Source of the DNA: Octopus vulgaris
Taxonomy: Eukaryota
Direction: 5' to 3'
Length of the DNA stretch: 64,000 bases
Assembly: GCA_951406725.2 (NCBI GenBank)
Contig: OX597822.1
Location: 39,928,001-39,992,000 of the forward strand
Part shown: positions 15,873-43,053 of the stretch, piece by piece
Position numbering within the stretch: the first letter of the stretch is position 1
Layout: each line of letters starts with the position of its first letter
Notes under the pieces: model-generated
What the model saw: only the letters and a program-made list of their open reading frames with translations
Databases searched by the model: none
What the model was told of the DNA's origin: nothing
Translations under genes and position numbers: made by a program

Positions 15873-15917
15873 TTACTTTTGACAATCTTTTTCCAAAGAG
15901 AGAAACCGGTAAAGTAA
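15873..15917 (+). ncRNA. Minimal hammerhead with U3-A8 covariation
   Basis: UUACUU-UUGACAA-UCUUUU(ucca)AAGAGA-GAAACCGGUA-AAGUAA; lies in repeat 15730-16000 shared with 33084-33346. Confidence 0.7.
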
Positions 15918-30619: not shown

Positions 30620-32056
30620 ATATCAGAAATTAAAGATGGAAAATGCTCACACTTTACATAGTTTTAATACATTTTATATTGTGTTTGTCGAACGGTTTCG
30701 CTTTCGCTAATCACGACATTAAAATTATTTTAATTACGTATTTTCTTAAGAAAAATTAGTTTGTCCATGTGTGGAGTTTATGAATGAATGACTCAATAGA
30801 TAGAAAAAGCTAAGGGGAGGTAATTGTGATAGTTATAATTGTGGATAGGAGAGATAATTGTTCACCATTCGGGGGTGGGGGAATATACATAAAAATTCAA
30901 AATCTAGAGTAGCGGGGAGGAATATGTACAGTGATAGGTGTAATCGTGAATTAAAATATGTATAGAGATCAAAGTTGGTTATGCGTACATATTTAGACGT
31001 GTTCTGTATTTTTGATGAATAAATTTCTTTATTTAAACGTTCTTGTATAGAAATTGTGTCGTTGCACTGGTGTAAAGAGAAAACTACGAAATTTGGTTTG
31101 ATGTTACCTGCACATCTCTTTATGTGTTTATTTAAAGGAATCTGTCTGTATGGCGGGAACCAGATCTGCTCTTTATACAGAGTGGTTCTCCGTTTCAATG
31201 TCATACTCGTCTGTCCTATATAATGATGTCCACAACCCGAGCAGATTATTACATAAATTAAATTCTCAGAAGCACAAGTGAAGTTGGATTTAATTGTGAA
31301 CCTCACTCCTTTTTTGCAAGAAAATCCGAGCTTTCAAATAGGTTAGAGCATGTTTGAGCATCCACATTTTTTAAGTGCTGGTTTCGTGGTTGTTGTGTAA
31401 AGTTTCGCATTTGTTAGAAGTATCTTTAGCCATTCGTGTTGCTTTTCGCATTTGATGAATCTATGTTTTTCAGGATCTTCCTTTTTGGGTCTTTAGTTAG
31501 TAAAGGAAGATTTTACACAATAGTGCTGTATGCCTCATTGTTTCTAGGGTTGTGAGTTGATATATAAAGTAGTGTTTTGAGCTGAGGTGTGGTGTTAGGT
31601 TTTGTTTCCTTAGTGCTTTTATGTCTAATTTCTTGGCACGCTTTTTCCCCATCGTGTATAAGTGAGAGTGGATATTGTCTTCTAGTTAGAGTTGTTCTGA
31701 GGTCTTGAAGACGAAGGTCCGAGCAGTTCTGTCAGACACTATAGTTCAAAACCTTTTTGCCAAATTAAAGGGGATATTTATTTTGATGTGTTTCGGGTGG
31801 CATGAGGTAAAAAGGAGATATTGCTTCGAGTCCGTTGGTTTATTATAGATGCCAGTTATAATTTGGTTGCTGACATTTTTTTTATCATTATATATAAAAA
31901 AAAATAGGAGCAGTTCTTTGCTATATTCCATTGTGTATTGAATGTTACGGTTTATATCATTTAGTGTTGATTTGAATTCCAAAAGTCTATCAATGGTGTC
32001 CTTCCAAATGATAAAACAGTCATCCAGGTATCTTTTCCGGTTTTCCCTTATGTAAT
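30620..32056 (-). mobile_element. Penelope-like element, 5'-truncated (RT C-half plus GIY-YIG, decayed)
   Basis: KRYLDDCFIIW, NIQYTME, KPTDSKQYLLFTSCHPKH (PLE RT); NLIYVIICSGCGHHYIGQT...RR (GIY-YIG). Confidence 0.92.
30686..30718 (-). ncRNA. Degenerate minimal hammerhead in the 3' region (pLTR) of the PLE
   Basis: UGUC-GUGAUUA-GC(gaaa)GC-GAAACCGUUC-GACA, same strand as the PLE ORF and ~115 nt downstream of it. Confidence 0.5.
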
Positions 32057-32077
32057 GGTGAAACGGACACTTCAATA

Positions 32078-35023: not shown

Positions 35024-36553
<1,530 letters not shown>

Positions 36554-41307: not shown

Positions 41308-41724
41308 ATAGAAATATTAAAATTACTAAGTCTCTTTAAAAGAGATTACCACAGCGTTTCTGGAAATTAATAGTTATCGCCATACTAATATGGCATTCTT
41401 AAAAATAAGAATAAAGCTGTCGCTGATTAGCTCCATGAAGCCATCGCCTCAAGCTAGTTACTTGACACACAAACTGCGTCCGTTATTAAACCTTCGAACA
41501 GGGGAGGTCAGCCGCTTCAACCTGCTAGTCCGACAGCTACAGACATGTTTCAGGGTTGTTGCCCCTTATCAATGCAGCGTAGTCAGACCTGCAGGTGACG
41601 CTACTGACCGTCTCTGCTCGAAGATTTTACCTAGTTACGGTGGAATGCATTTAATAACTATTAATTTCCAGAAACGCTGTCGTAATCTCTTTTAAAGAGA
41701 CTTAGTAATTTTAATATTTCTATT
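41307..41724. mobile_element. ~420-bp cassette with ~69-bp terminal inverted repeats and an internal hammerhead
   Basis: aatagaaatattaaaattactaagtctctttaaaagagattac..cagcgtttctggaaattaatagttat is mirrored at about 41654-41724. Confidence 0.8.
41536..41578 (-). ncRNA. Minimal hammerhead with U3-A8 covariation and GUC site
   Basis: GCUGCA-UUGAUAA-GGGG(caacaa)CCCU-GAAACAUGUC-UGUAGC. Confidence 0.75.
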
Positions 41725-41996: not shown

Positions 41997-42040
<44 letters not shown>

Positions 42041-42044
<4 letters not shown>

Positions 42045-42876
42045 CAACAATTGAGGGTAAAATTAATTAATTAATCAATTTCACCAAGTGTTCAGTATGT
42101 AAAAGGACCATTTAAGGCGAATTCAAAATATTACATTATATAATTAGGGCTTAGTAAAATAAATTACTTTGCCACATACTGAACTTAGTAGAAATAGCAG
42201 CCCCAAAACATTTTCTTAGCATTTCTACTACTTAAAGAAAATTTCTCTCAGATAATGCTTACTCTAGACAGCTCACGAAGGTTTGGGGGTAAATACAGAA
42301 AAATATCACAAGTACATAGATCGTTTGAGTACGTCAACGTTTCAAGATTAGCCAAATAAAATCAGCATTTCTTTCGTCAGCTCAAAATTTCTTAATTTGG
42401 ATTTGGAAACACTAAAAAGAAGGAACTTTACCTATCAGCGACTTGTCGTTCAGATGAACCACTCCAACTAACAGTGTCAACAAATTTAAAATGCGCAGGC
42501 GTAAAATTCTGCACTCCCCATTCCACCCACGTGGTCTATCTAGCAAACATTATATTTTAACCGCGAGAACCGAGGCAGTATGACCGAGAGATATGAATTA
42601 TAATATCAACAATTGAGGGTAAAATTAATTAATTAATCAATTTCACCAAGTGTTCAGTATGTAAAAGGACCATTTAAGGCGAATTCAAAATATTACATTA
42701 TATAATTAGGGCTTAGTAAAATAAATTACTTTGCCACATACTGAACTTAGTAGAAATAGCAGCCCAAAAAATGTTCTTAGCATTTCTACTACTTAAAGAA
42801 AATTTCTCTCAGATAATGCTTACTCTAGACAGCTCACGAAGGTTTGGGGGTAAATACAGAAAAATATCACAAGTAC
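42041..42876. repeat. Near-identical 275-bp direct repeats (42041-42315 and 42603-42876), period about 562 bp
   Basis: Base-by-base match with only a few differences. Confidence 0.95.
42324..42386 (-). ncRNA. Canonical-core type-I hammerhead
   Basis: UUUGAG-CUGACGA-AAGA...UCUU-GAAACG(uuga)CGUA-CUCAAA. Confidence 0.8.
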
Positions 42877-43053
42877 TTGACAACCGATGCTGGTGTGTTT
42901 ACGTCCCCGTCACTTAGCGGTTCGGCAAAGGAGACTGATAGAATAAGTACTGGGCTTACAAAGAATAAGTCCCGGGGCCGATTTGCTCGACTAAAGGCGG
43001 TGCTCCAGCATGGCTGCAGTCAAATGATTGAAACAAGTAAAAAGTAAAAGAAT
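42876..43053 (+). mobile_element. SINE family A, 3' half
   Basis: cttgacaaccgatgctggtgtgtttacgtcccc...gaaacaagtaaaaag. Confidence 0.88.

What the first reader, a model, noticed from the sequence alone, without database searches (positions are those of the whole stretch)
42041..42876. Young 1.5-mer of a 562-bp non-coding unit containing a canonical hammerhead (retrozyme-like)
Near-identical 275-bp direct repeats flank a 287-bp core. The best-formed HHR of the window (perfect core, 6-bp stem I, closed helix III with tetraloop) has its predicted GUA cleavage site about 14 nt from the repeat boundary. A greater-than-unit-length tandem is what reverse transcription around a circular RNA produces, as described for retrozymes. 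There is no ORF.
Basis: partly seen in the sequence, partly recalled or inferred. Interest (0 to 1): 0.75.

Follow-up and report, generated by a model that had tools for sequence, protein, structure and literature searches.

The report
Hammerhead retrozyme with two-armed Penelope insertions
This is one young copy of a non-coding jumping repeat with hundreds of copies in this animal genome and a predicted self-cutting RNA motif; the kind is known, but its copies start at two fixed points inside TA repeats and share mutations within each insertion, which suggests that a Penelope-type enzyme likely copies one RNA ring from both cut DNA strands.

Summary
Observation confirmed: 1.49 copies of a 562-bp non-coding unit with a type I hammerhead on the minus strand. 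It is not a local duplication: 387 exact genome-wide matches to a hammerhead 21-mer. In 115 loci, 167 of 184 arms start at one of two fixed sites 94 nt apart, nearly always fused to (TA)n, and end at random. 47 of 49 classifiable two-armed insertions pair one site with the other. Repeats within an insertion differ by 0.6-0.7%, between insertions by 1.95%. Copies read through the cleavage site; only 2 detectable stops there genome-wide. This is the Penelope-element footprint, also seen in a coding Neptune-type family here. Verdict: new member of the animal non-LTR retrozymes, probably written from one RNA circle by double priming. Cleavage, circles and the partner enzyme are not shown. The 14-nt distance to the repeat edge is coincidence, and this copy, with one hammerhead, cannot release a monomer. 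The scan reported the same pattern before on other DNA of this genome (other retrozyme families).

The parts
42041..42876 (-). Whole insertion: one arm, 1.49 units, primed at site A; RNA sense is the minus strand
42041..42602 (-). 562-bp monomer unit, 97-99% identical to the 40 best-scoring genomic copies
42041..42315 (.). First direct repeat (unit 1-275)
42603..42876 (.). Second direct repeat = partial second pass, truncated at unit position 275
42324..42386 (-). Type I hammerhead ribozyme; predicted cleavage between 42330 and 42329 (unit 290/289)
   Evidence: conserved in four sister families
41999..42044 (.). (TA)n target fused to start site A (unit position 1)
42135..42145 (-). Second family-wide start site B (unit ~95), not used by this copy
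42045..42245 (-). Structured module around both start sites, conserved in sister families; likely the enzyme-binding signal (inferred)
42412..42431 (-). 20-nt GT...AG motif (donor-like then acceptor-like) upstream of the hammerhead; role unknown
42876..43052 (+). Truncated, very abundant SINE-like repeat (label recalled) joined to the arm's end with 1 nt of overlap, followed by (TA)n; probably incidental

Best explanation
The element is a young, non-coding, dispersed repeat family whose 562-nt unit carries a predicted hammerhead ribozyme and is likely inserted by the enzyme of a Penelope-like element (PLE), probably copying one circular monomer from both cut DNA strands. Steps: (1) arrays with two or more hammerheads are transcribed, self-cleave to monomers and are ligated into circles (inferred from known animal retrozymes). 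(2) A PLE reverse transcriptase/GIY-YIG protein binds the structured module and nicks both strands of a (TA)n tract (target shown; enzyme inferred). (3) One 3' end primes at site A and the other at site B, 94 nt apart (sites and pairing shown; simultaneity inferred). (4) Each polymerase runs across the ligated cleavage site and stops at random, after up to 3.6 rounds (read-through and random ends shown; circle inferred). (5) The two cDNA ends anneal through a few complementary bases and are filled in (overlaps shown; mechanism inferred). The window copy is a one-armed product primed at A, and a dead end for monomer release.
For: 387 exact hammerhead 21-mer matches, control 0. Of 184 arms in 115 loci, 82 start at A, 85 at B, 17 elsewhere; (TA)n upstream in 78/82 and 81/85; 47 AB, 1 AA, 1 BB, p 2e-12, plus 12 two-armed copies with one unclassifiable end; 78 arms exceed one unit. 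Either arm can be the longer, so one is not a fold-back copy of the other. Divergence: 0.62% between passes, 0.73% between opposite arms, 1.95% between loci. Alleles found in 4 or more loci are in every covering copy of an insertion in 130 of 143 cases. 14 of 83 informative loci carry a private allele in all covering copies, 6 of them across both arms. Shared rare changes are 22/42 A>G or U>C in RNA sense, against 23/154 of unshared ones, unlike conversion of ordinary genomic mutations. No indel at the cleavage junction in 69 of 69 crossings in loci not chosen by that motif; 2 detectable stops there genome-wide. 33 of 53 head-to-head joints overlap by 1-20 nt. The longest array returned was the 3.6-unit query itself (40 best candidates). 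A coding Neptune-type PLE here has two TA-fused ends 38 nt apart (19 short, 10 long, 1 intermediate of 30) and short+long pairing in 3 of 3 pairs. Anolis Poseidon protein cuts and extends both strands, starts at two internal sites and is modelled as a dimer (PMC11167929).
Against: No cleavage, circle or transcript was shown. No coding partner was found: three PLE families (30 loci each) lack this module in their terminal repeats. The active hammerhead fold is not the predicted minimum-energy fold, and Rfam misses it. In vitro, Poseidon does not need cleavage and uses unprocessed RNA. L072 has 4 subfamily alleles that differ between passes, and 13 of 143 common alleles are discordant, so some templates were mixed or switched. 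L259 ends exactly at the cleavage site after 2.5 units, as a linear multimer would. 59 of 120 elements were scored as one-armed, although several hide a very short A arm. Two RNAs from one source locus would also share alleles.
Confidence: 0.65

Rival explanations
1. PLE enzyme, same two start sites, but the usual template is an uncleaved or partly cleaved linear multimer transcribed from existing arrays; uniformity is inherited from already uniform sources, and circles are rare or absent.
For: Poseidon uses unprocessed RNA in vitro. L072 is a mosaic of subfamily alleles. L259 stops exactly at the cleavage site after 2.5 units. 38 of 184 arms cross the site twice or more and could be such sources.
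Against: A purely linear route cannot lengthen arrays or spread a new allele to all passes and both arms, yet 130 of 143 common alleles and private alleles at 14 loci are spread so. No array longer than 3.6 units was returned. The 14 recurring unshared alleles sit mostly in different passes or arm types.
Confidence: 0.2
2. Templates are linear cleaved monomers, and the polymerase jumps from the 5' end of one monomer to the 3' end of the same or another.
For: Explains more-than-unit length and the occasional mosaic (L072); 3 of 184 arms end at 289-291.
Against: Jumps usually leave added or lost bases (recalled); none in 69 crossings. Only 2 detectable stops at the site against 387 read-throughs; none of the 17 loci chosen without the hammerhead motif ends there.
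Confidence: 0.07
3. The inverted arm arises by self-priming or fold-back (proposed for PLEs on antisense templates, PMC3846280), not by priming from the second target strand.
For: Some joints are near-perfect fold-backs, with both arms ending at the same place (L075, L104, sister L108).
Against: Most joints connect different unit positions, either arm can be the longer, and 57 one-armed copies start at A or B next to (TA)n on their own.
Confidence: 0.05
4. DNA-level repeat (local duplication, satellite or MITE) homogenised by gene conversion, with a decorative hammerhead.
For: Two-armed copies look like elements with inverted ends; near copies can convert each other.
Against: Fixed start with random truncation, strict A/B asymmetry, a template-type mutation spectrum, and hammerhead and module conserved across sister families 66-76% identical.
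Confidence: 0.03

Closest known systems
Animal non-LTR retrozymes (Cervera and de la Pena 2020, PMC7229834, parts 2-4 of 6 read; Li, Clavereau and Pollet 2026, bioRxiv 10.64898/2026.07.22.740005, parts 1-3 of 5 read)
   Same: Non-coding tandem units, each with one type I hammerhead, under 50% GC, dispersed, no LTR features seen, structured monomer (circular fold z -4.5), PLEs present in the same genome.
   Different: 562 nt exceeds the 150-450 bp typical in PMC7229834 but lies within the 51-972 bp of the 2026 preprint. Arrays are short (up to 3.6 units). The text read does not describe fixed start sites, a (TA)n target or two-armed A/B insertions. Circles and cleavage were shown there, not here.
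Endonuclease-containing Penelope-like elements (Poseidon PAc, PMC11167929, parts 1-2 of 4; Naiad/Neptune structure, PMC8557442, passages; Adineta PLEs, PMC3846280, passages; PLE hammerheads, PMC4209133, passages)
   Same: AT-rich or (TA)n target, two internal start sites giving a tail on one end, inverted 5'-truncated copy, partial tandems, type I hammerhead.
   Different: No ORF; tail of 94 nt rather than 30-40 nt; full rather than minimal hammerhead; no sequence link to a coding PLE found.
L1 twin priming (recalled, no paper read)
   Same: Both target strands prime cDNAs that are joined head to head through short overlaps.
   Different: Here both primers use fixed sites, and the arms copy the same sequence, often more than once, which a single linear monomer cannot supply.

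Membership tests
Animal non-LTR retrozyme | Type I hammerhead in each tandem unit | tested here: met
   core letters almost invariant in 130-140 passes, partly because many loci were chosen by a motif overlapping it
Animal non-LTR retrozyme | Short non-coding unit, no ORF | tested here: met
Animal non-LTR retrozyme | Multi-copy, dispersed, tandem | tested here: met
Animal non-LTR retrozyme | Two consecutive hammerheads (the 'active' criterion of the 2026 preprint) | tested here: met
   Met by the family (38 of 184 arms cross the site twice or more); NOT met by the window copy (one hammerhead)
Animal non-LTR retrozyme | Self-cleavage | not testable with these tools
   Prediction only; the active fold is not the minimum-energy fold
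Animal non-LTR retrozyme | Accumulates as circular RNA | not testable with these tools
   Only assembled contigs were available; genomic evidence is indirect
Autonomous Penelope-like element | RT plus GIY-YIG ORF between the repeats | tested here: not met
   No ORF in the unit; PLE protein hits in 7 of 117 regions, none with the unit as a sense terminal repeat (three inspected by eye, the others judged from coordinates)
PLE-mobilised non-autonomous element | PLE footprint: two internal starts (tail), AT-rich target, inverted truncated copy | tested here: met
   same footprint in a coding family
PLE-mobilised non-autonomous element | Sequence shared with the terminal repeat of a coding partner | tested here: inconclusive
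   Not found in three families, 30 loci each; the genome holds many more PLE candidates
Plant LTR retrozyme | Type III hammerhead in LTRs, fixed LTR ends | tested here: not met
   Type I motif lies outside the repeated part; repeat length varies between copies

The most novel reading that the evidence does not exclude
A dimeric Penelope-type reverse transcriptase loads on one retrozyme RNA circle at two fixed sites, primes one from each strand of a cut (TA)n tract, rolls past unit length, and the two cDNAs serve as each other's second strand. This would explain the tail, the inverted copy and the partial tandem of Penelope elements in one step, and edits made on the circle (e.g. the clustered A>G changes shared by all passes of L258) would be written into the genome.
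Probability: 0.45. Interest if true: 0.75.

Novelty: new member of a known kind. Interest (0 to 1): 0.5.

Why it matters
That PLEs mobilise animal retrozymes through circles is proposed, not shown (PMC7229834 discussion; 2026 preprint), and the origin of PLE tails and inverted copies is called undefined (PMC8557442 passages). This young family gives countable genomic evidence: two start sites used equally, near-obligate A/B pairing, and one haplotype per insertion across passes and opposite arms. It also offers a 562-nt substrate with mapped start sites for an in vitro test. The window copy itself is ordinary.

Tried and rejected
RNA evidence: no RNA holder listed on record. Contigs of four runs guessed to be RNA cover the unit and not the unique flanks, but DNA carry-over would look the same, and contigs show no ends or strand; not used as evidence. 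Empty site: not recoverable, no contig joins the flanks. Coding partner: not found among the P0001 Neptune-type family, the P0002 family or the L061 family; following two sister families and a degenerate module motif (hits not fetched) led only to more non-coding relatives. Stops at the cleavage site as a sign of cleavage in vivo: 3 of 184 looked suggestive, but the genome-wide test gave 2 (ends followed by T are invisible to it), about what random ends would give by my rough estimate; rejected. snRNA-type promoter (lead from scan notes): no significant match between the window unit and U2 upstream regions, 5 of 12 loci aligned. Micro-intron removal: 0 of 100 genomic spans shortened. Editing as the only source of shared variants: A>G is enriched (13/42 vs 8/154, p 2e-5), but strand bias against U>C is not significant (13 vs 9, p 0.2). 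RNAalifold did not recover the hammerhead from five aligned relatives, only stem II. The repeat finder was swamped by microsatellites. Literature: searches listed no paper whose title or abstract start describes A/B pairing or shared haplotypes for retrozymes; subscription papers are not covered, and no supplements were read (Figure S9 of PMC7229834, the mobilisation model, may bear on novelty).

Full report
Observation. The window holds 836 bp made of a 562-bp unit plus 274 bp of a second pass; the two repeats differ at 2 bases and one gap. A type I hammerhead lies on the minus strand at 42386-42324, with predicted cleavage at unit position 290/289. It is the only strict hit in the window, against 0 in 60 shuffles. 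Rfam does not detect it, and its active fold is not the minimum-energy fold. There is no ORF of 100 aa or more. The monomer folded as a circle is more stable than shuffles (z -4.5, 40 shuffles).

Family. The 40 best-scoring candidates of 1867 are 97-100% identical over the full unit and lie on many contigs. A hammerhead 21-mer has 387 exact matches and a 24-mer of the start region 617, controls 0. I examined 117 regions, chosen by similarity, by either motif or by length. Two duplicate regions were dropped first; 2 regions with no arm of at least 89% identity gave no rows. This is a sample of the family, biased towards long copies and copies that contain the hammerhead.

Ends. Of 184 arms, 82 begin at unit position ~1 (site A) and 85 at ~95 (site B), nearly all fused to (TA)n; the far ends are spread over the unit; 78 arms exceed one unit. 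Both sites are AT-alternating stretches that could pair with the target. Many insertions have two arms joined head to head: 47 AB, 1 AA, 1 BB, and 12 with one unclassifiable end. Either arm may be the longer. 33 of 53 joints overlap by 1-20 nt, 8 are blunt and 12 have inserted bases. The window copy is a single A arm; its far end joins a truncated abundant repeat, seen in 1 of 41 single-arm copies.

Template. A cleaved linear monomer would stop cDNA at position 289. Instead 133 of 184 arms cross it (inflated by selection). None of the 17 loci chosen without the hammerhead motif ends there, only 2 such stops are detectable genome-wide, and 69 of 69 unselected crossings have no indel. Passes of one arm differ by 0.62%, opposite arms by 0.73%, different loci by 1.95%; 12 added loci alone gave 0.61%, 0.80% and 2.32%. 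Common alleles are in all covering copies in 130 of 143 cases, and 14 of 83 informative loci have private alleles in all copies, 6 across both arms. Shared rare changes are mostly A>G or U>C, whereas unshared ones are led by C>U and G>A, which argues against DNA conversion. The window's two repeats share an allele seen in 4 of 153 other passes. So one monomer sequence is copied repeatedly at insertion; a circle is the simplest template. Against this, L072 is a mosaic and L259 ends exactly at the cleavage site, so linear multimers or template switches also occur.

Enzyme. Two internal starts, an AT-rich target and an inverted truncated copy are the PLE signature (PMC8557442 and PMC3846280 passages). 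Poseidon protein extends both strands from two internal sites (PMC11167929). A young coding PLE here (RT and GIY-YIG Pfam hits below the curated cut-off; Neptune-type by its cysteine motif; many 784-aa frames) has two TA-fused ends 38 nt apart and short+long pairing in 3 of 3 pairs. Its terminal repeat, and those of two other PLE families, do not match the unit, so the partner is unnamed. The module around A and B is conserved in sister families of ~546-550 nt with the same two starts. It folds well (z -4.5) and has 5 of 38 pairs with two-sided changes in 6 sequences (structure derived from the same alignment).

Comparison and novelty. The family meets every testable feature of animal non-LTR retrozymes (PMC7229834; 2026 preprint). 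Circular templates for more-than-unit copies were already proposed (PMC4209133 passage). I found the A/B pairing and shared-haplotype evidence in no paper read or listed (searches named under Tried and rejected). My reading was fixed before the first look-up of scan notes; those notes report the same pattern for 359-590-nt families in this genome and call it an octopus or cephalopod. They are unchecked and not independent support. No note matched this unit by sequence.

Verdict. New member of a known kind, with a clear mechanistic footprint. My estimates: retrozyme 0.95, PLE-mobilised 0.9, circle as main template 0.7; combined model 0.65; interest 0.5.

Noticed in passing
window 41310-41722: Another two-armed, TA-flanked element of a different family, with a minimal U3-A8 hammerhead at 41578-41536 (minus strand); similar sequence follows the end of an arm in L080.
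   Followed up: partly
window 31025-32066 (minus): Broken Neptune-type PLE ORF fragment, 46-50% identical to P0001.
   Followed up: no
window 15873-15917 (+), 34667-34607 (-), 17282-17194 (-): Further hammerhead-like motifs under the loose descriptor.
   Followed up: no
L071:875-2074; L108-L137: Sister retrozyme, 546-nt unit, 76% identical, young (97-99% among copies), arms over 4 units, same two starts, hammerhead with a shorter helix III and palindromic loop.
   Followed up: partly
L032:3875-4850; L168-L197; L101; L057: Older sister families (~550 nt) with the same module, starts about 108 nt apart and a U3-A8 hammerhead whose stem I differs by compensatory changes (read by eye).
   Followed up: partly
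window 42412-42431 (minus): Donor-like GT followed 17-23 nt later by a pyrimidine tract and AG, upstream of the hammerhead, in 4 of 5 family members compared; no genomic copy lacks it.
   Followed up: partly
L258 unit positions 388, 389, 393: Cluster of A>G changes (RNA sense) shared by all covering passes, as A-to-I editing of the template would give.
   Followed up: partly
L061:1676-3323; L174:1501-2870: Retrozyme arms joined, through a short inverted piece, to the 3' part of a coding PLE: possible template switches or deletions at insertion.
   Followed up: partly
unit position 333 (window 42373): A subfamily (12 loci) has a U-U mismatch at the base of stem II yet spread, as described for axolotl HHR_Amex2.
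   Followed up: no
L138-L167: Very young Neptune-type PLE family: all 150 scored matches 99-100% identical, many with 784-aa open frames.
   Followed up: partly
runs X16, X17, X20: Contigs labelled organisms B, C and D also cover the unit with few differences.
   Followed up: no
window 35900-36211: Frame resembling a mariner transposase fragment (label recalled).
   Followed up: no
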